In this document: piece by piece, positions 733 to 18,311 of the stretch | Layout: every line of letters begins with the position of its first letter | How positions within the stretch are numbered: position 1 is the first letter of the stretch | Source: Naegleria gruberi | Lineage: Eukaryota | Assembly: GCA_000004985.1 (NCBI GenBank) | Contig: GG738961.1 | Direction: 5' to 3' (one strand) | Length of the DNA stretch: 18,311 bases | Made by a program: the position numbers and the translations under genes | Notes under the pieces: generated by a model | Seen by the model: the letters and a program-made list of their open reading frames with translations, nothing else | What the model was told of the DNA's origin: nothing | Databases searched by the model: none

Positions 733-1873
733 ATGGATCTCTACATTCCTTCTGATTTAAACAATTGTGATGATGATTTTTGTGACGAAATGTTGCCAGT
801 TGAAGAAAAATTAGAAAGAAGAATGGATGAATTGACAATTTTAGATGGTGATGCATTTGTCTCAAACACAACAAGCAATTCCCAAACAACAGGTGCTTGG
901 ATTCGTGCTAAACATTTGGAAGAAGAAGGTTATGATCAAGAATTGGTTGACCACAGTGAAAATTTTGTCGATTTGGTTATTGTAATGGATTGTACTGGAT
1001 CAATGTCTGGTGAAATTGAAGTTGCCAAACGAACTGTCACTACTATCATCTCAACACTTCATGAAAAGTTTCAATCTGATTTGAGATTTTCAGCTGTCAG
1101 TTATAGAGATCACACTGATGATTATGCAGTTAAGGAATTCCCATTTACAAAGGATTTAAATAAGGCAAAGGGTTATATCAATACAATGTCAGCTCAAGGT
1201 GGAGGTGATCATCCAGAAGCTTTGGCATCAGCTCTCTATGTCATTAATGAAATGCCATTTAATAAGAAGGGAAAGAAGATTGTTGTTTGGGTTGCTGATG
1301 CTCCTCCACATGGAATGAAATGTTATTGATTGGATCAAATTGGGATCTGCTCTCCAGGAGAAGAATGTTGTCTTTTATGGAATTTTGTGTGAAAGAGCAA
1401 AGGATGATCAACAATTGACCTTGTTTATGGATTTTTTGACAACTAAAACTGATGGTAAATGTTTACTCTTAACAGATGCTAATAAGATTCCAAATTTGGT
1501 GATTAATGGTTGTGTGGAAGATGAAGATATGGACAATCTTGTTGCAAAGAAAATTAAAGAATTGGGAGAAGAGAAGGTCAATAATTTGGGAATGGATGAT
1601 TTACTTAAACTTATTCACAATGAAACATCCTCTGAAAAGGTTGCCCAAGTTAAAACCTTTGAAATTGCCTCAACCAGAACTAAGAATTTGATGCAATATT
1701 CAACCTTATCTGATATGCAATGTGATGATTTTGTTTCAGCTCAGAATGTCATGACTAGAAATGATGATTGTGAGGCAGAGAGCGATTCATTTGATGATTA
1801 TGGAGGTGTTTACTACAAAGCACCAACAATGGAAAAGGTGGCAAAGGCCTATTCCAGAAATTTGAGAAAGTAA
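733..1873 (+). CDS. von Willebrand factor type A (vWA) domain protein. It is coded in two overlapping frames (733-1329 and 1319-1873) that need a +1 shift near 1320-1327, so it is a frameshifted gene, a pseudogene or an assembly error
   Basis: The ATG at 733 sits in an A-rich context (caaaataATGg). ORF1 carries vWA hallmarks: a hydrophobic beta strand plus a MIDAS-like DxTGSM (DLVIVMDCTGSMSGEI), then FSAVSYRDH, GGGDHPEALASAL and KIVVWVADAPPHG. The frame-1 stop is a TGA at 1327-1329. Frame 2 is open from 1319 (NVIDWIKLGSALQEKNVVFYGILCERAKDDQQL...) to the TAA at 1871-1873, with the same codon bias and a charged C-terminus. No canonical intron reconciles the frames: the only GT is at 1322, and the AGs at 1356, 1359 and 1362 give 36, 39 and 42 nt introns that read t+ga. 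Removing one T in tgttattga would fuse the frames into a ~375 aa product. Confidence 0.65.
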
Positions 1874-1907: not shown

Positions 1908-1954
1908 TAGAATTTCGAGAATATTTATTAAACTATAGGATAGGCATTCTAATT

Positions 1955-2693
1955 GGGTTTGGTTAGGATTCAGAGTTGATTTATTTGGGTTATTTAAGAG
2001 ATTACTTAGTGAAGATTCATATCATTGATTATATTTCTTATCGTCTATAAATGATGTAAATTTGATGGTTTCATTTCTTGTATTGATAGATATTTAAAGG
2101 TCAGGTCAGTACTAACTTTTGAATTATGGACTTTGAGAAGTCAAATGTTTGGGACGTGAATCTACTCATTAGATTGAATAGGTTTTGCTAATAAAAGAAC
2201 ATTTCATTGATTTATTGATTATAACGGTCAAATTGAGTTGAATGGAAGTGAATCTAATGTTGATTCATCGTGGATGGGTAGTTTCGCCACGAAGTGGTGC
2301 AACTACCAACCTTTGTAGATTGAATCAGGTTGATTTTCATGCAATATGAAATATAGCATTATCAAGAGTGTGATTGTTCACCAATTCAATGATCAATATT
2401 CAATAATCGGTTTGATTTCAATCAATAGCTTGATCATCAAGCTTTGATTTAATATTCCAGTAATCAACGGCAGTCTATTTTTAAATTTAATCAAAGACCA
2501 TATATAGTATCTAGACTTTTATGAAACTATCTAGATGTGTTCTATATTGAATAATATATTTGAAAATGAGAAGAATTAACTCTTCTATTGAGTTTTATTG
2601 GTATTGCAAGGTATTTCGATTATAATAATCTACACAGAAATCACACTTGAAATATAAACTGTATTACAATGTATGAGAAACATAACGGTGGGG
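1955..2693. repeat. subtelomeric repeat family, copy A (739 bp visible, truncated by the gap at 2694)
   Basis: It starts with GGGTTTGGTTAGGATTCAGAGTTGATTTATTTGGG. It is co-linear and ~95% identical by eye with 9241-9968 (copy B) and 12797-13560 (copy C). The shared internal landmarks are: gtcaggtcagtactaac, caatagcttgatcatcaagctttga (a palindromic core) and ctacacagaaatcacacttgaaatataaactgta. Confidence 0.8.
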
Positions 2694-3023: not shown

Positions 3024-3703
3024 AATTCATATGGTANATATGGAAATATTCTATAATTACTTTTCAAGGCAATTTTGCAAAATTCCAAATTAGATTTTAA
3101 ATTTTCAGATAAATATCTAAATGATGTTTCTGAATTTTTAATTGAATTCAGTGCTATACCCTTGTTATTCTTAACGTCTTCATTTGTAACGTATTTCATC
3201 AATGATCCATTTATAGAAAGTGCCATATTACACAATTCAATGTCAGATCTCAATTCTTGTGATGCAAATTCAAATGCTTGAACATTACTTTGCAATGCTA
3301 TTTTAACTAATTCTCTATCATTTTGATAATTTGGAAAATATTTCAATAAATTTCCATTTCTAGAAAGTATAATTTTCATAATATTGCTGTTACTGGTCAA
3401 TAGTTTGGATTGATATTTAATTAATTGATAAGTTAACATTTTAATATTGTAATCACTAGAATTTTTCAAACTTGTTTCAATTAACTCTTCATCATTTAAA
3501 ATTTTATCATATTCACTCTCCGGAAATTTTTCATAATTGATCAATAATTCATCTCCATCTTTTTTTACAATTTCCAATCTTTCACTTTGAAGTGTATTTA
3601 AAGTGAATTTACTTGATGAAAAACGAGCCAATGATGATGAACTGAAGAGCTGTGGTTTTATCAATTTGTGTGTTAAAACACCAAGCTTGACAAGTTGTTT
3701 CAT
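3024..3703 (-). CDS. DUF4116-like repeat protein with an N-terminal mitochondrial-presequence-like segment; partial, with the 3' end lost in the gap
   Basis: On the minus strand the ATG at 3703-3701 sits in caaaaaaaaATGaaa context. About 226 codons are open down to the gap with no stop seen. Tandem ~30-aa units (LKYFPNYQNDRELVKIALQSNVQAFEFASQELRSDIELCNMALSINGSLMKYVTNEDVKNNKGIALNSIKNSETSFRYLSENLKSNLEFCKIALKSN) fit the DUF4116 aL.yas.eL.nd.e.v..A...ng pattern. This is from memory and not searched. The first 41 residues (MKQLVKLGVLTHKLIKPQLFSSSSLARFSSSKFTLNTLQSE) are basic and hydroxylated with no acidic residue. Confidence 0.55.
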
Positions 3704-4576: not shown

Positions 4577-5025
4577 ATGATAAAGGAGTGGAACTCTTTT
4601 GTAAGTATAATATCACTCAACATTTAATAATCAAAGAGGTCGCAGCAGTTTAAGTATTTCAGATTATGTAACAATGTAATGAATTGATTCATTTAAGGTA
4701 GGTTTATCATTATCAAGAAAATTGTTCAAAAGAACAGCATACTCAAACTTATCTTTTACATTGGACTAATGTCCCATCAACCAAGAAGACTTATGAATTT
4801 CCTGAAAGTGGAAATGTAGAAATTATTTATATTTATCACGATGAGCTCTTTTCAAATATTCAAATTGTGACAAAAGACACTGTTATTCCAATTACTATTC
4901 CAATTAAATTACAAATATCGAATGTGGATATCCCAAAACAATTACCACAAACACTCTCATTAAGTGACTCGGTCTTTCCACAGGAAAGAGTTTCGCTGAA
5001 AAATGTTTCCTGGAAATTCCAGTAA
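4577..5025 (+). CDS. candidate spliced protein-coding gene of uncertain structure. The ATG at 4577 plus 7 codons is followed by a canonical 62-nt intron (4601-4662). A 107-codon ATG-less ORF (4702-5025) lies downstream
   Basis: A textbook donor (ttttGTAAGTat at 4601) pairs with an acceptor (agtatttcAG at 4661-4662). Further donor and acceptor pairs lie at 4350/4394-4395 (aatGTTAGT ... ctcttttcAG) and 4424/4463-4464 (actGTAAGT ... atatcAG). The 4702-5025 ORF reads VYHYQENCSKEQHTQTYLLHWTNVPSTKKTYEFPESGNVEIIYIYHDELFSNIQIVTKDTVIPITIPIKLQISNVDIPKQLPQTLSLSDSVFPQERVSLKNVSWKFQ*. I could not assemble a consistent exon chain by hand. Confidence 0.2.
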
Positions 5026-5745
5026 ACAATATTGATTCATCCAAATATCCAAAAACTATTATTCGGAGTGTTGTTGATGAAGTATTTGAATGGTACTATT
5101 CGAAGAAAGTTTGGTTGATGATGAAGTACATGTTGAAATATGGTCAATGTATATTTTGAATATATACATGTACCTATCTTGATGAAAACAAAATTCCAAT
5201 CTATGAAACTCGAATATGTATTGCTATATACTATTACAAATAATCCCACATTTGAATTTCTGATAATGGTCCAGTACATCGGAAGATATTGGCCAATTAG
5301 TGAAAAATAACTTTTGTCAAAATAATACTATTCTCAAATTAAAGTCTACAAATACTATTGTTATAATGATGGTAAAAATTAATGATGATGGTTGGTGTGT
5401 GTTCTGATGATGATTCACCAACTTGAATTTTTCCAATATCAAAATTACTATCTAATTCCATAACGATAAACTTCCACATAAAACTACTATTTTTACTATT
5501 ATATTGATGATGTATAGATGATGTATAGATGATGAGGTTCAATTCTTGGAGTGGGAAGATGAAGAACCACTCCGAAAATAAGCTACTCATAAAATTGATA
5601 TTTTTTATGAATGCAAGATACTTCTTTGTTGAGGTCGCTGTGAATATTCTTTCGATGTCTTTGAGGTTCAAAACTGTGCAATTAGCTTCGGACTCAAAAC
5701 AATTAAGGAAGTATTGCTTCCATTTTTATTTTGCTTTACTGGATT

Positions 5746-5783
5746 TTCCAGGAAAGATTTCTTTAGGAAACTCTTTCCTGGAA
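5746..5783. repeat. perfect 12-bp inverted repeat (TTCCAGGAAAGA ... TCTTTCCTGGAA) with a 14-nt spacer. It is a hairpin in the 3' flank of the minus-strand gene
   Basis: The arms lie at 5746-5757 and 5772-5783 and are exact reverse complements. The hairpin lies 64-101 nt beyond the stop of the 5847-6329 minus-strand CDS. Confidence 0.5.
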
Positions 5784-5846: not shown

Positions 5847-6329
5847 TTACAACAAACTTTTTGCCTCTGTTGCTAACACCACAAAGTCGTCCAGGGTCTG
5901 TGGTGGCGTATTGCCTCCGGCAAGTTGCGCTAATTGGGCAAACATCATCAATCCTCTGACTTTGTCTGACCTATTGGCACAAGTGTTTGCTAAGCTGAAA
6001 ATATCATTGAACTCAGACTCAATAGTTTGGAAGAACTCAATGAAATCCATTCCCGTTATGTACATTGGATCAATATTTGTTTTTGTTGAGAATTGATACA
6101 AGAAAAAGAATGGATCGGTAGTTAAAATTTGTGCAATTTCCTCATCACTAAGTGGGCTTACAATATTTTTAACGCTTTCTTTGAAGTTGTGATTTAGGAT
6201 TGTTAATTCTGTCACTGTATCAACCAAAGGCATATCAAACTTATCCATTTGTTTTAGTATTTCACAATAGACAAGAAGAGCCTCCTTTTTCGTAGCTCGG
6301 ATAGAGAGTACAAGAATTGTATCAAACAT
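5847..6329 (-). CDS. hypothetical protein, probably the terminal exon of a larger minus-strand gene
   Basis: The minus-strand ORF runs from the ATG at 6329-6327 (MFDTILVLSIRATKKEALLVYCEILKQMDKF...LAQLAGGNTPPQTLDDFVVLATEAKSLL*) to the stop at 5849-5847. The same frame stays open a further ~100 nt upstream (ENGVLYPKLNIHIRHTRGFLLGHTTPDWLSVRLLSD) to a TAA near 6433 with no in-frame ATG, so an upstream exon is likely. The residue composition is protein-like. I do not recognise the family. Confidence 0.45.
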   Translation of the reverse strand: MFDTILVLSIRATKKEALLVYCEILKQMDKFDMPLVDTVTELTILNHNFKESVKNIVSPLSDEEIAQILTTDPFFFLYQFSTKTNIDPMYITGMDFIEFFQTIESEFNDIFSLANTCANRSDKVRGLMMFAQLAQLAGGNTPPQTLDDFVVLATEAKSLL

Positions 6330-6578
6330 ATCTGACAACAGTCGCACAGATAACCAATCTGGAGTGGTGTGACCAAGAAGGAAGCCTCTCGTGTGTCTGA
6401 TGTGAATGTTCAGTTTGGGATATAAAACACCATTTTCTTAGTAGTACCGTTTGGTGGTTTAGTGTGTTTCTCGATCTAAATTCGAGTTTGAATATAATTT
6501 TTGTACATATTCACAATTTATTTTGTTGTTATATGAGAATTGATTTTTTGTATTTTATTTTTTTGATAAATTATTGGG

Positions 6579-6581
<3 letters not shown>

Positions 6582-6609
<28 letters not shown>
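6582..6609. repeat. (AT)14 dinucleotide microsatellite
   Basis: It reads atatatatatatatatatatatatatat. Confidence 0.95.
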
Positions 6610-6612
<3 letters not shown>

Positions 6613-6922
6613 AACAAAAATTATATTTATCTATGTTAGAAAAATCATTTCCCTTTTATTCTTCATCATGCTCCTCCTCATGTTTTTTACACATCCTGTC
6701 TTTATCAAATCCCATTCTCACTACATCCTTTTCATCATAATTCCTCGCAAATTCATTTATCTGTTCAGATTACATTTATTTACCCCTTAAAAGTGATTTT
6801 CCATTCTTCATTTTACATGATATTTTCGGTGATTTCTTGGTAAGAACTCTTTATTAGTAGACTTTTTGTATTTCATTTTTTTCTGTCAACAGGTTTCACA
6901 TATTATAAACAACAAAAGGTTT

Positions 6923-9214: not shown

Positions 9215-9240
9215 CGAAAAATTATCCAATCATCCAGGCT

Positions 9241-11922
9241 CTTGTTAGGATTCAGAGTTGATTTATTTGGGTTATTTAAGAGATTACTTAGTGAAGATTT
9301 ATATCATTGATTATATTTCTTATCATCTATAAATGATGTAAATTTGATGGTTTCATTTCTTGTATTGATAGATATTTAAAGGTCAGGTCAGTACTAACTT
9401 TTGAATTATGGACTTTTAGAAGTCAAATGTTTGGGACGTGAATCTACTCATTAGATTGAATAGGTATTGCTAATAAAGTAACATTTCATTGATTTATTGA
9501 TTATAACGGTCAAATTGAGTTGAATGGAAGTGAATCTAATGTTGATTCATCGTGGAATGGTAGTTTCGCCACGTACAAACCTTTGTAGATTGAATCAGGT
9601 TGATTTGCATCTCTCCAATATGTAGCATTATCAAGAGAGTGATTATTCTCCAATTCAATGACCAATATTCAATAATCGGTTTGATTTGAATCAATAGCTT
9701 GATCAACAAGCTTTGAATCAAGATTCCAGTAATCAACGGCAGTCTATTTTTAAATTTGACCAAAGACCATATATAGTATCTTGACTTTCATGATCTGGCA
9801 ACTATCTAGATGTGTTCTTTTTTGAATAATCTATTTGAAAATGAGAAGAATTAACTCTTCTATTGAGTTTTATTGGTATTTCATGGTTTTACGATTATAA
9901 TAATCTACACAGAAATCACACTTGAAATATAAACTGTATTACAATGTATGAGAAACATAATGGTGGTGGAATTAATCAATAACTCGTTGAAATGACTGAG
10001 ATGGAATGTAAACTATGGTCTATTTGTTATGTAACGGTGACTAGACAGTGTCAATTTCATCAAATTATTTCAAACTGATAACATTCAATAAAAAAACCAC
10101 TCTATACATCAAATATACCATATAGAATGAGTTTCAATATTTAATATTGTGAACTGACTCTGTTGGATACCAGCTCTATAAATATAACAATATGAAAAGT
10201 GTCAACATTCAATTTCACATTCATGTTACTATGAAGAGTCATCATTATATCATCTAAATAGGTTGTATATCAAGTTTCAGTGGAATTGACTGTCTACATA
10301 TTGAGATGTGCATACTAAGGTTAAAGAAGTGTCACCTTCACTGATTACTGACATGAATATAACAATTGAATGTATTATTCTTGTATAATTAATTCATTAT
10401 TCAATGATTTTGATATGATGGTAAAATTTAATTTTGAAATTAAGATTCTTCCCTATTGATTACCTTAGATGTTCCTTAGTTGACTTGAAGATATTGAGCC
10501 ATGAATATAAAACTTTCTCAGATTGTTCTCCTCATCAAGAGGAGTGTATTCATATTTGATACTTGTTTGACATTTTGAAAAATGAATGAGATGGAGTATA
10601 TTCTATATGTTGAAATGTGACAATTTGACAGATTGTTATTATTATCATATTGAATTCAATTCTAAAACACTAAAATTGATACCAGTTGTATATAAGTGTG
10701 ACTAAATGTATCTGGTAAAGTTACGTGATGGTTGGATATACTTTCATTGAGACAGTGTGTACACTTGGATATAAGCACTATTGACATTAAATATTTACTG
10801 ATTGACTGAATGAAAGTATCATGAATTGTTTCAAAACGTGTATAGATGTATATAAATGATGTATTGAATGTGTATTATCAATTCTAGACTAATTGCATAT
10901 AAAATAAGTGATTTAGAGCATAATCTTTGATTTTATGTCAAAGTTCTATAGTATAGTGATAGAGTTGACAACTCAATATCTACTGAGCCAATATTCATGA
11001 AATTGATATTATATGCTAATTAGAGTGTCTACATATTATGATATCAATTTCATTGAAATTGGAGTTGATTCTATATCCTTCAGATTTCTTCAATGAAATA
11101 TCACCATGTACTATCTAACGGATGCATTTCTTGAAATGAAATTATATAATTTGATGAAAGTCCACTTTATTTGAGATGTAGAACACGATATTATCATTTA
11201 TTTTGAGATTGGTAACTTTTCCTAAAGTCTCATCCTTAATGGTCTTAATTGACTAAAAGAGGTCAAGGAGAGATTTCAAAACATAAAATAAATGATATTT
11301 TCGAGATGTACTAATGATTTCCAATCGATTGATATGTATTTTGTAGATTGAGGATGTGGTTTTCTGTATTCAAGATTTCCTCCTGATCTTCCCAAGTCAA
11401 CCTTGATAAATCACTCTTTACCTTACTGAAAGATGGAATGTTCACCAAAACGTCTAAAAACTGAATTATATACATTATCGGAGATGTGGAACATGATGGT
11501 AATGTTTCATAAAGTGGTCATTTTCCAGAAATTCATCCGTGTCCATAGTTTATCAGATGGCATGTTAGCCATGTGTGATTGAGGGAAGAAATCTTTAAAT
11601 ATTAAAGTTAAAATAAATTTGATATTCGATGTTTACTCATCAAATGGAACATTTTCATATTAGGATTCAATATGTTTTGATGAGAAACTCAAAAGTTATC
11701 GTTGACCTCTTTTACCTCACAACTTCCCTTTTCACTTGATACTTTTATATCTACAGACTTGAACTTTTATAATTTGATATGAAAGTGATTATGAATGTTA
11801 TTAATGATGATATAGACTATATAATCTCATTAAAGGATTTTGAAATTAACATTCTTCCTATAGTTTCATTTTACAAATTTTAATCTGACATTATTTACAA
11901 AGTTAATATTTTATAAATTGAA
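9241..11922. repeat. subtelomeric repeat family, copy B (~2.7 kb, the only copy fully sequenced)
   Basis: Positions 9241-9968 align with copy A and 9241-10199 with copy C's pre-gap part. Positions ~11560-11922 align with copy C's post-gap tail (17219-17586). No ORF is credible; only a 75-aa low-complexity ORF is present. The copy ends at a GGGTTTGGTTATCGG motif (11923-11937). Confidence 0.8.
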
Positions 11923-12796
11923 GGGTTTGGTTATCGGAACCTCGGATACCTCTTACTCCAATCTCTTATTGATTTAAGATTTTGAAATTGTTTATTATTG
12001 AATTTTTATAAAGAGTATTGACACGAATCAGAAGCTTCTTATTGTGACAACACTTGATAGAAGAATGGGAAAGTGGTTCAACATATTGAAAGTGAACAAT
12101 CTCAAGATTTGGAACTCTTCTTCATGAAGAGGAGGTTATTGGGTGGTGACTAGAGAGAAACATTTCCTTGTAGCTTTTCTACTAGTAAATGATTAATTGA
12201 CCAAGATGTTGACCTATAATATGGAAACACAATAAAATTTAATAATACTGATAAATACAAGTAGTGAATATGAATGGTAATCATAATTCACTGAAAAAAT
12301 CATGATTGGATCCATTATGAGACTTTTGGAAGTCAACTTGGATGGCAATAGGGGAGCTTTCGATGTGATTAACACTTTTAAAGGGATATGAATATTTTAT
12401 TGGATAAAATATGTCATCGCTGTACTTTATCACTAAATGTTGAATATCATGATGTTATAATCTATATTTCCAATTTGGGAAATGTTGTAATGTCAATGTT
12501 TAATTGAAATATTGCCATCATACCAATAATTGATTTTATACTATAAAAATGATATTATACACTATAATTGATATATATATGAATATATGATTGTAATATT
12601 TCAATTTTAACATTTATTAATGACGTGGGTTGTTCACTAAGGTAGTAACTTTGTCATATGATAACTATCTAAGATGATATTAAAATCATTCCAAAATTGA
12701 TTCGATGAGAGTATTTGATGATTATAACATGGTAATATTGAATTGGTGTTGATTAGTACCATTCATGACATGTAAGAATGTTACCTTTTTGTCAAT

Positions 12797-15700
12797 GGGG
12801 TTTGGTTAGGATTCAGAGTTGATTTATTTGGGTTATTTAAGAGATTACTTAGTGAAGATTCATATCATTGATTATATTTCTTATCATCTATTAATGATGT
12901 TAATTTGATGGTTTCATTTCTTATATTGATAGATATTTAAAGGTCAGGTCAGTACTAACTTTTGAATTATGGACTTTGAGAATTCAAATGTTTGGGACGT
13001 GAATCTACTCATTAGATTGAATAGGTATTGCTAATAAAGGAACATTTCATTGATTTATTGATTATAACGGTCAAATTGAGTTGAATGGAAGTGAATCACA
13101 TGTTGATTCATAGTGGTTGGGTAGTTTCGCCACGAAGTGGTGCAACTACCAACCTTTGTAGATTGAATCAGGTTGATTTGCATGCAATCTGAAATATGTA
13201 GCATGATTCAAGTGATTATTCACCAATTCAATGATCAATATTCAATAATCGGTTTGATTTCAATCAATAGCTTGATCATCAAGCTTTGAATTAATATTCC
13301 AGTAATTAACGGCAGTCTATTTTTAAATTTAATCAAAGACCATATATAGTATCTTGACTTTTATGATCTGGAAACTATCTAGATGTGTTCTATATTGAAT
13401 AATCTATTTGAAAATGAGATGAATTAACTCTTCTATTGAGTTTTATTGGTATTGTATGCTATTACGATTATAATAATCTACACAAAAATCACTCTTGAAA
13501 TATAAACTGTAGTAGAACGTTTGAGAAACATAATGGTGGCGGAATTAACCAATAACTCGTTGAAATGACTGAGATGGAATGTAAACTATGGTCTATTTGT
13601 CATGTAATGGTGACTAGACCGTGTCAATTTCATCAAATTATTTCAAACTGATTACAATCAATAAAAACCCGTTCCATACATCAAACATATCATATAGAAT
13701 GAGTTTCAATATTTAACATTGTGAACTGACTCTGTTGGATACCATCTCTATAAATATAACAAGATGAAAAGNNNNNNNNNNNNNNNNNNNNNNNNNNNNN
13801 NNNNNNNNNNNNNNNNNNNNNNNNNNNNNNNNNNNNNNNNNNNNNNNNNNNNNNNNNNNNNNNNNNNNNNNNNNNNNNNNNNNNNNNNNNNNNNNNNNNN
13901 NNNNNNNNNNNNNNNNNNNNNNNNNNNNNNNNNNNNNNNNNNNNNNNNNNNNNNNNNNNNNNNNNNNNNNNNNNNNNNNNNNNNNNNNNNNNNNNNNNNN
14001 NNNNNNNNNNNNNNNNNNNNNNNNNNNNNNNNNNNNNNNNNNNNNNNNNNNNNNNNNNNNNNNNNNNNNNNNNNNNNNNNNNNNNNNNNNNNNNNNNNNN
14101 NNNNNNNNNNNNNNNNNNNNNNNNNNNNNNNNNNNNNNNNNNNNNNNNNNNNNNNNNNNNNNNNNNNNNNNNNNNNNNNNNNNNNNNNNNNNNNNNNNNN
14201 NNNNNNNNNNNNNNNNNNNNNNNNNNNNNNNNNNNNNNNNNNNNNNNNNNNNNNNNNNNNNNNNNNNNNNNNNNNNNNNNNNNNNNNNNNNNNNNNNNNN
14301 NNNNNNNNNNNNNNNNNNNNNNNNNNNNNNNNNNNNNNNNNNNNNNNNNNNNNNNNNNNNNNNNNNNNNNNNNNNNNNNNNNNNNNNNNNNNNNNNNNNN
14401 NNNNNNNNNNNNNNNNNNNNNNNNNNNNNNNNNNNNNNNNNNNNNNNNNNNNNNNNNNNNNNNNNNNNNNNNNNNNNNNNNNNNNNNNNNNNNNNNNNNN
14501 NNNNNNNNNNNNNNNNNNNNNNNNNNNNNNNNNNNNNNNNNNNNNNNNNNNNNNNNNNNNNNNNNNNNNNNNNNNNNNNNNNNNNNNNNNNNNNNNNNNN
14601 NNNNNNNNNNNNNNNNNNNNNNNNNNNNNNNNNNNNNNNNNNNNNNNNNNNNNNNNNNNNNNNNNNNNNNNNNNNNNNNNNNNNNNNNNNNNNNNNNNNN
14701 NNNNNNNNNNNNNNNNNNNNNNNNNNNNNNNNNNNNNNNNNNNNNNNNNNNNNNNNNNNNNNNNNNNNNNNNNNNNNNNNNNNNNNNNNNNNNNNNNNNN
14801 NNNNNNNNNNNNNNNNNNNNNNNNNNNNNNNNNNNNNNNNNNNNNNNNNNNNNNNNNNNNNNNNNNNNNNNNNNNNNNNNNNNNNNNNNNNNNNNNNNNN
14901 NNNNNNNNNNNNNNNNNNNNNNNNNNNNNNNNNNNNNNNNNNNNNNNNNNNNNNNNNNNNNNNNNNNNNNNNNNNNNNNNNNNNNNNNNNNNNNNNNNNN
15001 NNNNNNNNNNNNNNNNNNNNNNNNNNNNNNNNNNNNNNNNNNNNNNNNNNNNNNNNNNNNNNNNNNNNNNNNNNNNNNNNNNNNNNNNNNNNNNNNNNNN
15101 NNNNNNNNNNNNNNNNNNNNNNNNNNNNNNNNNNNNNNNNNNNNNNNNNNNNNNNNNNNNNNNNNNNNNNNNNNNNNNNNNNNNNNNNNNNNNNNNNNNN
15201 NNNNNNNNNNNNNNNNNNNNNNNNNNNNNNNNNNNNNNNNNNNNNNNNNNNNNNNNNNNNNNNNNNNNNNNNNNNNNNNNNNNNNNNNNNNNNNNNNNNN
15301 NNNNNNNNNNNNNNNNNNNNNNNNNNNNNNNNNNNNNNNNNNNNNNNNNNNNNNNNNNNNNNNNNNNNNNNNNNNNNNNNNNNNNNNNNNNNNNNNNNNN
15401 NNNNNNNNNNNNNNNNNNNNNNNNNNNNNNNNNNNNNNNNNNNNNNNNNNNNNNNNNNNNNNNNNNNNNNNNNNNNNNNNNNNNNNNNNNNNNNNNNNNN
15501 NNNNNNNNNNNNNNNNNNNNNNNNNNNNNNNNNNNNNNNNNNNNNNNNNNNNNNNNNNNNNNNNNNNNNNNNNNNNNNNNNNNNNNNNNNNNNNNNNNNN
15601 NNNNNNNNNNNNNNNNNNNNNNNNNNNNNNNNNNNNNNNNNNNNNNNNNNNNNNNNNNNNNNNNNNNNNNNNNNNNNNNNNNNNNNNNNNNNNNNNNNNN

Positions 15701-17586
15701 NNNNNNNNNNNNNNNNNNNNNNNNNNNNNNNNNNNNNNNNNNNNNNNNNNNNNNNNNNNNNNNNNNNNNNNNNNNNNNNNNNNNNNNNNNNNNNNNNNNN
15801 NNNNNNNNNNNNNNNNNNNNNNNNNNNNNNNNNNNNNNNNNNNNNNNNNNNNNNNNNNNNNNNNNNNNNNNNNNNNNNNNNNNNNNNNNNNNNNNNNNNN
15901 NNNNNNNNNNNNNNNNNNNNNNNNNNNNNNNNNNNNNNNNNNNNNNNNNNNNNNNNNNNNNNNNNNNNNNNNNNNNNNNNNNNNNNNNNNNNNNNNNNNN
16001 NNNNNNNNNNNNNNNNNNNNNNNNNNNNNNNNNNNNNNNNNNNNNNNNNNNNNNNNNNNNNNNNNNNNNNNNNNNNNNNNNNNNNNNNNNNNNNNNNNNN
16101 NNNNNNNNNNNNNNNNNNNNNNNNNNNNNNNNNNNNNNNNNNNNNNNNNNNNNNNNNNNNNNNNNNNNNNNNNNNNNNNNNNNNNNNNNNNNNNNNNNNN
16201 NNNNNNNNNNNNNNNNNNNNNNNNNNNNNNNNNNNNNNNNNNNNNNNNNNNNNNNNNNNNNNNNNNNNNNNNNNNNNNNNNNNNNNNNNNNNNNNNNNNN
16301 NNNNNNNNNNNNNNNNNNNNNNNNNNNNNNNNNNNNNNNNNNNNNNNNNNNNNNNNNNNNNNNNNNNNNNNNNNNNNNNNNNNNNNNNNNNNNNNNNNNN
16401 NNNNNNNNNNNNNNNNNNNNNNNNNNNNNNNNNNNNNNNNNNNNNNNNNNNNNNNNNNNNNNNNNNNNNNNNNNNNNNNNNNNNNNNNNNNNNNNNNNNN
16501 NNNNNNNNNNNNNNNNNNNNNNNNNNNNNNNNNNNNNNNNNNNNNNNNNNNNNNNNNNNNNNNNNNNNNNNNNNNNNNNNNNNNNNNNNNNNNNNNNNNN
16601 NNNNNNNNNNNNNNNNNNNNNNNNNNNNNNNNNNNNNNNNNNNNNNNNNNNNNNNNNNNNNNNNNNNNNNNNNNNNNNNNNNNNNNNNNNNNNNNNNNNN
16701 NNNNNNNNNNNNNNNNNNNNNNNNNNNNNNNNNNNNNNNNNNNNNNNNNNNNNNNNNNNNNNNNNNNNNNNNNNNNNNNNNNNNNNNNNNNNNNNNNNNN
16801 NNNNNNNNNNNNNNNNNNNNNNNNNNNNNNNNNNNNNNNNNNNNNNNNNNNNNNNNNNNNNNNNNNNNNNNNNNNNNNNNNNNNNNNNNNNNNNNNNNNN
16901 NNNNNNNNNNNNNNNNNNNNNNNNNNNNNNNNNNNNNNNNNNNNNNNNNNNNNNNNNNNNNNNNNNNNNNNNNNNNNNNNNNNNNNNNNNNNNNNNNNNN
17001 NNNNNNNNNNNNNNNNNNNNNNNNNNNNNNNNNNNNNNNNNNNNNNNNNNNNNNNNNNNNNNNNNNNNNNNNNNNNNNNNNNNNNNNNNNNNNNNNNNNN
17101 NNNNNNNNNNNNNNNNNNNNNNNNNNNNNNNNNNNNNNNNNNNNNNNNNNNNNNNNNNNNNNNNNNNNNNNNNNNNNNNNNNNNNNNNNNNNNNNNNNNN
17201 NNNNNNNNNNNNNNNNNNTCAACATAGTTGACCGTATGATGGTTGAGGGAAGAAATCTTTAAATATGAAAGTTAAAATAAATTTGATATTCGATGTATAC
17301 TCATCAAATGGAACATTTTCATGGCAGGATTCAATATGTTTAGATGAGAAACTCAAAAGTTATAGTTGACCTATTGTACCTCACAACTTCCCTTTTCACT
17401 TGATACTTTTATACCTACAGACATGAACTTTTGAAATTTTATATGAAAGTGATTATGAATGTTGTTAACGATGATATAGACTATATAATCTCATTAAAGG
17501 ATTTTGAAATTATCATTCTTCCTATAGTTGTATATTTGAAATTTTAATCTGATATTATTTACAAAGTTAATATTTTATAAATTGAA
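12797..17586. repeat. subtelomeric repeat family, copy C (starts GGGGTTTGGTTAGGATTCAGAGTTG; interior replaced by the gap)
   Basis: Positions 12797-13771 are ~95-97% identical to copy A and copy B starts. Positions 17219-17586 match the copy B tail. An ~870 bp spacer (11923-12796) with no second copy in the window separates copies B and C. Confidence 0.75.
13772..17218. other. assembly gap (3447 N) inside repeat copy C
   Basis: Run of n characters. The equivalent interval in copy B is only ~1.36 kb (10200-11560). Confidence 0.97.
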
Positions 17587-17671
17587 AAACTAAATATACC
17601 ACGTTGTTCTACTCATCATTTCCTATCGAATGATATAAAATTTAATGATATTTGAATAAGTTTATAATTTT

Positions 17672-17722
17672 GGGCTAGGGTTTGAACGTTGGGTTTAGAA
17701 GAATTGGGTTTGGATTAGAGTT
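17672..17722 (+). repeat. interstitial cluster of degenerate telomere-like motifs
   Basis: It reads gggctagggtttgaacgttgggtttagaagaattgggtttggattagagttg. It begins with the same tgggctagg junction motif found at the true telomere junction (18021-18029). It ends in gggtttggattagagttg, which resembles the repeat-unit start gggtttggttaggattcagagttg. Confidence 0.5.
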
Positions 17723-18021
17723 GTTTTGATTTGTTACTTCGGTGGCACCATGGTCTTTATGATCTAATATAGAGTCTTTAAGTGAATCTTGGGCTTTTGG
17801 AAAGGTTTTTCAGTAAAGTTTTAAAAAAAGTATATACTTTCTATCTAGATATCGAGATTTGGTGTATTTGTTGTTTGCATTGTTATTTGGAAAGTGGTAA
17901 AGATTTCGATATTCTTTGTTGGGTTTGGTTATCGTTTCGTACTCATTGGATCTTCATTATTATTGAAATACATAATCAATGATATACATCATTAAATAGG
18001 TTACAATCTCAGCTATCCAGT

Positions 18022-18311
18022 GGGCTAGGTTGGGTTTGGGTTTGGGTTTGGGTTTGGGTTTGGGTTTGGGTTTGGGTTTGGGTTTGGGTTTGGGTTTGGG
18101 TTTGGGTTTGGGTTTGGGTTTGGGTTTGGGTTTGGGTTTGGGTTTGGGTTTGGGTTTGGGTTTGGGTTTGGGTTTGGGTTTGGGTTTGGGTTTGGGTTTG
18201 GGTTTGGGTTTGGGTTTGGGTTTGGGTTTGGGTTTGGGTTTGGGTTTGGGTTTGGGTTTGGGTTTGGGTTTGGGTTTGGGTTTGGGTTTGGGTTTGGGTT
18301 GGGTTGGGTTG
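18022..18311 (+). repeat. telomere repeat array (GGGTTT)n, G-strand 5'->3' toward the window end
   Basis: A degenerate junction (gggctaggtt) is followed by ~45 perfect GGGTTT hexamers in constant phase from 18032 to 18295. The last 16 nt are GGGTT x3 + G (18296-18311). Confidence 0.92.

What the first reader, a model, noticed from the sequence alone, without database searches (positions are those of the whole stretch)
18022..18311. Terminal (GGGTTT)n telomere marks the window end as a chromosome end, with an unusual pure G3T3 unit
About 45 perfectly phased GGGTTT units with the G-rich strand reading 5'->3' into the sequence end is the expected orientation for a right-hand telomere. The whole window is therefore a subtelomere. 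Pure T3G3 is uncommon. Paramecium mixes T2G4 and T3G3, and Tetrahymena uses T2G4. The ~850 codons of the genes here contain no in-frame TAA or TAG. The organism therefore uses the standard code and is not an oligohymenophorean ciliate. The last three units are GGGTT. This could be a distal variant from telomerase slippage or a read-end error.
Basis: partly seen in the sequence, partly recalled or inferred. Interest (0 to 1): 0.55.

Follow-up and report, generated by a model that had tools for sequence, protein, structure and literature searches.

The report
Naegleria gruberi TTTGGG telomere, already described

Summary
The array is real. There are 44 perfect GGGTTT units at 18032-18295, then GGGTT x3 plus a final G to the last base (18311). 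The G-rich strand reads 5'->3' into the sequence end.

The window is a whole 18,311-bp scaffold of Naegleria gruberi NEG-M (Heterolobosea). An ORF at 5847-6347(-) is 100% identical to XP_002668748.1 (NAEGRDRAFT_76334), whose only contig is 18,311 bp long. The vWA gene's best hits are N. gruberi paralogs.

TTTGGG was already published as the candidate telomere repeat of N. gruberi, from scaffold ends in silico (Fulneckova et al. 2013, PMC3622300). The telomere reading is therefore supported and not new. The inference of a standard genetic code in a non-ciliate organism is also correct, because TAA ends two homology-supported genes here.

Caveats:
- The telomere-bearing contig is only 1,093 bp. 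It sits behind a 3,447-N gap and partly consists of a dispersed repeat, so its linkage to the rest of the window rests on scaffolding.
- The terminal GGGTT variants cannot be resolved without the reads.
- No experimental proof (BAL31, TRAP, telomerase RNA) was found in the searched library.

Minor extras:
- Short GGGTTTGGTTA seeds sit at the boundaries of the subtelomeric repeat blocks.
- An unidentified AT-rich eukaryote in metagenome assembly JAESGV01 carries the same telomere repeat.

The parts
18032..18295 (+). Telomere array: 44 perfect tandem GGGTTT units, G-rich strand 5'->3' towards the sequence end
18296..18311 (+). Distal variant units GGGTT x3 plus a final G, ending at the last base of the scaffold; either a real variant or a read-end error, undecided
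18020..18031 (+). Transition between subtelomere and telomere: degenerate units GTGGGCTAGGTT
17671..17712 (+). Degenerate telomere-like tract (TGGGCTAGGGTTTGAACGTTGGGTTTAGAAGAATTGGGTTTGG). It begins with the same TGGGCTAGG as the true junction. Probably a decayed older telomere start or an interstitial telomere remnant.
17921..17934 (+). Telomere-like seed GGGTTTGGTTATCG, identical to the 14-mer at 11923-11936
11923..11936 (+). Telomere-like seed GGGTTTGGTTATCG, lying exactly where homology between repeat copies 11576-11922 and 17240-17586 stops
1951..2691 (+). Subtelomeric dispersed repeat, copy A (runs into a gap). It starts with the GGGTTTGGTTA seed at 1955.
9244..10199 (+). Subtelomeric dispersed repeat, copy B (starts at a gap edge); 92% identical to copies A and C
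12794..13771 (+). Subtelomeric dispersed repeat, copy C (runs into a gap). It starts with the GGGTTTGGTTA seed at 12798.
17240..17586 (+). Second repeat family on the telomere-bearing contig; 93% identical to 11576-11922
733..1873 (+). vWA-domain gene, 79-82% identical to N. gruberi paralogs. It is broken by an out-of-frame internal deletion near 1322-1340, so it is a likely pseudogene or an assembly error. It ends in TAA at the same residue as the paralog.
3041..3703 (-). 5' part of a DUF4116-repeat gene, cut by the N gap
5847..6248 (-). Annotated N. gruberi gene NAEGRDRAFT_76334 (XP_002668748.1, 133 aa), 100% identical. It identifies the window as a whole 18,311-bp N. gruberi scaffold.

Best explanation
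This is the right-hand telomere of a Naegleria gruberi NEG-M chromosome, captured at the end of a small 18.3-kb scaffold.

Shown here:
- There is a 280-bp array of the species' TTTGGG repeat.
- It is terminal, and its G-rich strand runs 5'->3' to the end.
- It is preceded by degenerate same-strand variants and by gene-poor, duplicated subtelomeric DNA that includes a broken vWA paralog.

Inferred from general telomere biology:
- The array is synthesised by telomerase copying an RNA template that contains about 1.5 copies of the complement (for example 5'-AAACCCAAA-3').
- It ends in a single-stranded G-rich 3' overhang that can fold into three-tetrad G-quadruplexes with TTT loops.
- It is bound by Myb/TRF-like and OB-fold end-protection proteins, which cap the end and offset replicative shortening.

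The assembled 280 bp is a lower bound on the true length, set by read length. The three terminal GGGTT units are most simply low-quality read-end base calls (dropped T's), but real telomerase slippage is not excluded.
For: - Array anatomy and position.
- Organism: the vWA ORF's best hits are N. gruberi proteins at 79-82% identity. The ORF at 5847-6347(-) is 100% identical to XP_002668748.1/NAEGRDRAFT_76334, whose single contig is 18,311 bp, exactly the window length.
- Published precedent: TTTGGG is named as the candidate telomere repeat of N. gruberi, judged from position and orientation at scaffold ends (PMC3622300).
- Same-strand telomere-like remnants: GGGTT occurs 13 times on the + strand upstream of the array, against 1 AACCC. 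GGGTTTGGTTA occurs 4 times against 0.23 expected, all on the + strand. There is a degenerate tract at 17671-17712.
- Subtelomere-like context: three copies of one repeat and two of another, no ORF longer than 75 aa in 9215-13771, and a broken vWA paralog.
- G-quadruplex predicted for (GGGTTT)4, -12.6 kcal/mol against 0 without the G4 option (model energies are indicative only).
- The same repeat behaves as a telomere in another organism: 12 of 12 contigs of metagenome assembly JAESGV01 carry it terminally in the correct orientation.
Against: - No experimental proof exists in the literature I could search. The 2013 report is in silico only and itself says experimental tests are required.
- I found no paper on Naegleria telomerase RNA, TRAP products or BAL31 sensitivity.
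- I could not read other scaffold ends of the same assembly, because N. gruberi is not in the index of the look-up of encoding contigs.
- Internal (GGGTTT)>=6 microsatellites do exist in many unrelated metagenome contigs: 58 of the 80 listed loci are internal. The motif alone is therefore not diagnostic.
- The telomere contig is short (1,093 bp) and joined to the rest only across a 3,447-N gap.
Confidence: 0.9

Rival explanations
1. A non-telomeric hexanucleotide microsatellite or interstitial telomere-like block at which the Sanger assembly simply stopped. On this reading the scaffold end is an assembly break, not a chromosome end.
For: Assemblers often break at long simple repeats. Internal (GGGTTT)>=6 runs occur in many unrelated metagenome contigs (58 of 80 listed loci internal; 7 terminal arrays in the 'wrong' orientation). 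Fulneckova et al. note that many genomes also hold internal telomeric blocks.
Against: The array has 44 uninterrupted perfect units in the telomere orientation. Degenerate variants lie only on the proximal side and only on the same strand. The published survey found this motif to be the convincing terminal repeat of this genome. The flanking DNA is duplicated and gene-poor, as expected of a subtelomere.
Confidence: 0.06
2. The telomere is real, but it is mis-scaffolded. The 1,093-bp telomere contig (17219-18311) belongs to a different chromosome end that shares the dispersed repeat, so the remaining 17 kb of the window is not this telomere's subtelomere.
For: The contig is separated from the rest by 3,447 N. 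Of its 813 non-telomeric bases, 347 are a 93% copy of 11576-11922. The offsets between the two repeat families differ between copies (2,332 against 4,435 bp), so either the gap size or the join is uncertain.
Against: The order of repeat families in copy C followed by the telomere contig mirrors the order in copy B (9244... then 11576-11922), which is what a correct join would give. Same-strand telomere-like seeds occur throughout the distal 9 kb.
Confidence: 0.12
3. A sequencing or cloning artefact (vector, adaptor, contaminant DNA from another organism such as a ciliate) appended to the scaffold.
For: Terminal position, with only the last few hundred bases involved. GGGTT variants occur at the very end, where read quality is lowest.
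Against: The array is continuous with Naegleria-type AT-rich sequence that is itself a 93% copy of an internal segment of the same scaffold. The junction motif TGGGCTAGG recurs 350 bp upstream. The array contains no GGGGTT units, unlike a Paramecium-type mixture. The same repeat was reported as the terminal repeat of this assembly. From my own knowledge, GGGTTT is not a cloning-vector or adaptor sequence.
Confidence: 0.02

Closest known systems
Naegleria gruberi candidate telomere repeat TTTGGG (Fulneckova et al. 2013, Genome Biol Evol 5:468, PMC3622300)
   Same: Same organism, same assembly, same motif and the same kind of evidence (terminal position and orientation at scaffold ends). This window is one instance of what that survey reported.
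   Different: Nothing substantive. This analysis adds the fine structure of one end: 44 perfect units, a proximal degenerate transition, distal GGGTT variants and telomere-like seeds at the boundaries of subtelomeric repeats.
Paramecium telomeres (mixed TTGGGG/TTTGGG)
   Same: TTTGGG is one of the two units used. The repeat is G-rich and 6 nt long, and the genome is AT-rich.
   Different: Here the array is pure T3G3, with no GGGGTT unit among 47 units. The organism is a heterolobosean that uses TAA as a stop codon, not a ciliate that reads TAA/TAG as Gln. The end is flanked by shared subtelomeric repeats, not created by de novo addition to arbitrary sequence.
Canonical TTAGGG (human-type) and Tetrahymena TTGGGG telomeres
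   Same: Same TnGm/TnAGm class of 6-nt telomerase-made repeats with a GGG core, the same strand polarity and the same predicted capacity to form G-quadruplexes.
   Different: One base differs from each (TTAGGG to TTTGGG; TTGGGG to TTTGGG). Fulneckova et al. infer TTAGGG as ancestral in Excavata, with TTTGGG a derived state in Naegleria.
Unidentified eukaryote in metagenome assembly JAESGV01 (loci L006, L029, L030, L041, L055, L079, L081, L085, L086, L087, L107, L121)
   Same: (TTTGGG)8-17 at contig ends, always in the telomere orientation (12 of 12). The contigs are AT-rich (GC 0.22-0.39).
   Different: No DNA or translated similarity to the window outside the repeat. The arrays abut unrelated unique sequences with no shared subtelomeric repeat. 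Some arrays carry G4T2/G4T3 variants (L085, L086). The organism is not identified; L087 encodes a DYW-type PPR protein with no close named relative.

Membership tests
Telomerase-type eukaryotic telomere array (TnGm/TnAGm class) | Tandem array of a short (5-8 nt) G/T-rich unit with a G cluster | tested here: met
   44 perfect GGGTTT units plus 3 GGGTT; TRF period 6, 47.2 copies, 99% matches
Telomerase-type eukaryotic telomere array (TnGm/TnAGm class) | Array lies at the physical end of the molecule | tested here: inconclusive
   The array runs to the last base of a complete scaffold. A scaffold end is not proof of a chromosome end; that needs BAL31 digestion or long reads.
Telomerase-type eukaryotic telomere array (TnGm/TnAGm class) | G-rich strand oriented 5'->3' towards the end | tested here: met
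   GGGTTT is on the + strand at the 3' end of the window
Telomerase-type eukaryotic telomere array (TnGm/TnAGm class) | Same repeat at the other chromosome ends of the same genome | not testable with these tools
The literature reports TTTGGG as the convincing terminal repeat of this genome (PMC3622300).
Telomerase-type eukaryotic telomere array (TnGm/TnAGm class) | Degenerate variant repeats at the centromere-proximal edge, same strand | tested here: met
   GTGGGCTAGGTT at 18020-18031; degenerate tract at 17671-17712; GGGTT 13 times against AACCC once on the + strand
Telomerase-type eukaryotic telomere array (TnGm/TnAGm class) | Telomerase (TERT plus an RNA with a complementary template such as AAACCCAAA) that synthesises the unit | not testable with these tools
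   Only this 18-kb scaffold is available. Rfam finds no RNA family in it. No paper on Naegleria telomerase RNA or activity was found.
Telomerase-type eukaryotic telomere array (TnGm/TnAGm class) | Single-stranded 3' G overhang | not testable with these tools
   Requires an experiment (in-gel hybridisation or overhang assays)
Paramecium-type ciliate telomere (mixed T2G4/T3G3) | Irregular mixture of TTGGGG and TTTGGG units | tested here: not met
   No GGGGTT within the array; the only GGGGTT in the window is at 12797
Paramecium-type ciliate telomere (mixed T2G4/T3G3) | Host is a ciliate with TAA/TAG reassigned to Gln | tested here: not met
   The host is N. gruberi, Heterolobosea. TAA terminates two supported genes.
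Ordinary internal hexanucleotide microsatellite | Flanked by unique sequence on both sides, with no strand or end preference | tested here: not met
   No sequence lies distal to the array, and it has the telomere orientation. Internal examples in other organisms are seen.

The most novel reading that the evidence does not exclude
The short telomere-like seeds (GGGTTTGGTTA; TGGGCTAGG followed by T3G3-like units) sit exactly at the borders of the duplicated subtelomeric blocks. They could record repeated cycles of terminal breakage, telomerase healing and re-capture of distal blocks. On that reading, Naegleria subtelomeres are built by serial telomere healing, and the GGGTT distal units would then be genuine telomerase slippage products, not read errors. 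A second possibility is that pure T3G3 telomeres are more widespread than thought, as the unidentified JAESGV01 eukaryote suggests.
Probability: 0.2. Interest if true: 0.35.

Novelty: already known. Interest (0 to 1): 0.15.

Why it matters
It matters little beyond bookkeeping. It confirms that this small N. gruberi scaffold is capped by the species' published TTTGGG repeat, and so marks one chromosome end of a genome whose karyotype and chromosome-scale assembly are still incomplete. It also shows that a tool-free reader can correctly recognise a telomere and infer the genetic code. The Naegleria telomere repeat still lacks experimental confirmation, and no telomerase RNA is described in the literature I could search. 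The junction and subtelomeric repeat described here could therefore serve as a probe or primer site for telomere-length, BAL31 or TRAP experiments in N. gruberi and, by extension, in the pathogen N. fowleri.

Tried and rejected
1. I tried to read other N. gruberi scaffold ends through paralogs P0001 and P0002 and through P0005 with the look-up of encoding contigs. None is on record. Only an internal N. lovaniensis locus (L001) was retrievable, which says nothing about telomeres.

2. Ciliate (Paramecium-like) origin is rejected by protein identity to N. gruberi, by TAA used as a stop codon and by the absence of GGGGTT units.

3. I scanned metagenome contigs for (GGGTTT)6 hoping to find Naegleria relatives. 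No locus shares DNA or translated similarity with the window outside the repeat. Most hits are internal microsatellites in GC-rich contigs.

4. I tried to identify the JAESGV01 organism from a 931-aa ORF of L087. It is a DYW-type PPR protein with only distant named relatives (plants, chytrids), so the taxon stays unknown. A test for the ciliate code gave only low-complexity pseudo-ORFs and was dropped.

5. Rfam and tRNA scans of the window found nothing, so there is no telomerase RNA or other RNA gene here.

6. The literature searches found nothing on Naegleria telomerase, its telomerase RNA, or N. fowleri and N. lovaniensis telomeres beyond the 2013 survey. Supplementary table S5 of that survey is not held as text, so the number of N. 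gruberi scaffold ends carrying the repeat could not be obtained.

Full report
**Observation.** Reading 17400-18311 directly and scanning with regular expressions shows 44 perfect, in-phase GGGTTT units at 18032-18295. They are followed by GGGTT GGGTT GGGTT G, which ends at base 18311, the last base of the window. Tandem Repeats Finder reports a single array at 18030-18310 with period 6, 47.2 copies, 99% matches, no indels and score 548. The next-best tandem repeat in the window scores 61. Just upstream lies a degenerate transition, GTGGGCTAGGTT (18020-18031). The window is thus a scaffold, and the contig that actually carries the array is only 17219-18311 (1,093 bp).

**Which organism.**
- The ORF at 733-1329 carries a von Willebrand A domain (Pfam VWA_4, VWA_2 and VWA). 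Its best database hits are Naegleria gruberi proteins at 82% and 79% identity, then a metagenome protein and a N. lovaniensis protein.
- The ORF at 5847-6347(-) is 100% identical to P0005, which is 'predicted protein [Naegleria gruberi]' (EFC36004.1, XP_002668748.1, NAEGRDRAFT_76334). This protein is recorded on a single contig of 18,311 bp, exactly the window length.
- The window is therefore a complete small scaffold of N. gruberi NEG-M (Discoba, Heterolobosea).
The vWA reading frame ends ...AYSRNLRK-TAA at the same residue as paralog P0001, and the annotated gene NAEGRDRAFT_76334 also ends at TAA.
- The 762 supported codons hold no TAA or TAG, where about 28 would be expected at the out-of-frame density of 0.037. 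That count alone is partly circular, because ORFs are defined by the absence of stops.

**Is it known?** Yes. Fulneckova et al. 2013 (PMC3622300) searched 143 genome assemblies for terminal minisatellites, judging candidates by position and orientation. [quoted passage not shown] They also state that experimental tests are still needed. The remaining literature searches found no further paper on Naegleria telomeres, telomerase or telomerase RNA. The N. fowleri nanopore-assembly paper does not mention telomeres at all. The window is thus one instance of a published in-silico observation that remains experimentally unconfirmed.

**Evidence that it is a telomere and not a microsatellite.**
- The G-rich strand runs 5'->3' into the end.
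- Degenerate variants occur only proximally and only on the same strand. GGGTT occurs 13 times on the + strand upstream of the array, against one AACCC. A tract at 17671-17712 (TGGGCTAGGGTTTGAACGTTGGGTTTAGAAGAATTGGGTTTGG) begins with the same TGGGCTAGG as the real junction at 18021.
- The flanking DNA looks subtelomeric. One repeat family has three copies (1951-2691, 9244-10199, 12794-13771; 92-94% identity). A second has two (11576-11922 and 17240-17586; 93%).
- The 4.5-kb block 9215-13771 has no ORF longer than 75 aa.
- The vWA gene lacks about 16-17 codons relative to its paralogs and has a frame shift near 1322-1340, so it is a likely pseudogene or a sequence error.
- The motif alone is not diagnostic. 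Of the 80 listed with contig lengths, 58 are internal, 15 terminal in the telomere orientation and 7 terminal in the wrong orientation, many in GC-rich contigs.
- All 12 contigs from one assembly (JAESGV01) are AT-rich and carry the array terminally in the correct orientation. This shows that T3G3 acts as a telomere in at least one other, unidentified eukaryote. None of these loci resembles the window outside the repeat.

**Mechanism.**
- Shown: the sequence, position, polarity and context of the array.
- Inferred from general telomere biology: synthesis by telomerase on an RNA template of the AAACCCAAA type, a 3' G overhang, capping proteins, and G-quadruplex formation. ViennaRNA with the G-quadruplex option predicts a three-tetrad quadruplex for (GGGTTT)4 at -12.6 kcal/mol, against no structure without that option (indicative only).
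- The assembled 280 bp is a lower bound on telomere length.
- The three GGGTT units at the very end are most simply read-end errors in a Sanger consensus. Genuine slippage cannot be excluded without the reads.

**Rivals.**
- An interstitial block or microsatellite at an assembly break: about 0.06.
- A real telomere mis-scaffolded onto this 17 kb: about 0.12. The telomere contig is short, lies behind 3,447 N, and has 347 of its 813 non-telomeric bases made of a dispersed repeat. The spacing between the two repeat families also differs between copies (2,332 against 4,435 bp).
- A cloning or contaminant artefact: about 0.02. Against it, the array is continuous with Naegleria-type sequence that is itself repeated inside the scaffold.

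**Side observations.**
- GGGTTTGGTTA occurs four times, all on the + strand, where 0.23 is expected and none of 200 shuffles reaches four. Each copy lies exactly where homology between subtelomeric repeat copies begins (1955, 12798) or ends (11923), or lies within the last 110 bp before the telomere (17921).
- Two of the four copies share a longer 14-mer, GGGTTTGGTTATCG. This is what healed breaks followed by block capture would leave behind, but one scaffold cannot establish it.

**What could not be done.**
- Other ends of the same assembly could not be read.
- Supplementary table S5 of the 2013 paper is not held.
- The JAESGV01 organism could not be named. Its L087 contig encodes a DYW-type PPR protein with only distant named relatives.
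- Rfam and tRNA scans of the window were empty.

**Verdict.** The feature is the already-published candidate telomere repeat of Naegleria gruberi, so it is ordinary and already known. Interest is low (0.15). The residual interest lies in the lack of experimental validation and in the telomere-like seeds at the subtelomeric block boundaries.

Noticed in passing
window 1290-1345 (within the vWA gene, 733-1873): Relative to N. gruberi paralogs P0001 and P0002, the vWA gene lacks about 16-17 codons (…APPHGM | …VIDWIKLG…) and changes frame. It reads as two ORFs (733-1329 and 1340-1873). It is a likely subtelomeric pseudogene or an assembly error.
   Followed up: partly
window 1955, 11923, 12798, 17921 (+ strand): The 11-mer GGGTTTGGTTA occurs 4 times (0.23 expected; none of 200 shuffles reaches 4), always on the G-strand. 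Three of the four copies lie exactly where homology between subtelomeric repeat copies starts or stops. Two of the four share the 14-mer GGGTTTGGTTATCG. These may be scars of telomere healing or capture.
   Followed up: partly
window 17671-17712 and 18021-18031: TGGGCTAGG occurs only twice in the window, each time followed by T3G3-like units. The upstream copy looks like a decayed duplicate of the junction between subtelomere and telomere.
   Followed up: partly
window 13772-17218 (gap) and 17219-18311: The telomere-bearing contig is only 1,093 bp and lies behind a 3,447-N gap. Bases 17240-17586 are a 93% copy of 11576-11922. Linkage of the telomere to the rest of the scaffold therefore depends on mate-pair scaffolding through repeats.
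   Followed up: partly
window 9215-13771: This 4.5-kb contiguous block has no ORF longer than 75 aa on either strand and consists largely of dispersed repeat copies. It is gene-poor subtelomeric DNA.
   Followed up: partly
window 4981-5026 / 5735-5780: A 46-nt inverted repeat (85% complementary) with arms 708 nt apart lies just downstream of gene NAEGRDRAFT_76334. It could be the terminal inverted repeats of a small transposon remnant.
   Followed up: no
window 6582-6644: An (AT)14 dinucleotide run and an A/T-rich 25-nt repeat lie next to the 6923 gap. The region 6500-6920 is extremely AT-rich.
   Followed up: no
loci L006, L029, L030, L041, L055, L079, L081, L085, L086, L087, L107, L121 (metagenome assembly JAESGV01): Twelve AT-rich contigs (GC 0.22-0.39) all end in (TTTGGG)8-17 in the telomere orientation. 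The arrays are joined directly to unrelated unique sequences, and two contigs (L085, L086) also carry G4T2/G4T3 variants. This is an unidentified eukaryote with T3G3 telomeres and no similarity to the window.
   Followed up: partly
L087 8702-11497 (-): A 931-aa pentatricopeptide-repeat protein with a DYW deaminase domain (PF14432) is encoded a few kb from a TTTGGG telomere. Its nearest named relatives are distant (plants at 19-24% identity). From my own knowledge, DYW-type PPR proteins outside plants are known from a few protists, including Naegleria.
   Followed up: partly
metagenome loci L002-L121: Perfect (GGGTTT)>=6 runs are fairly common as internal microsatellites in unrelated, often GC-rich metagenome contigs: 58 of the 80 listed loci are internal, and 7 terminal arrays lie in the non-telomeric orientation. 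The motif by itself does not identify a telomere.
   Followed up: yes
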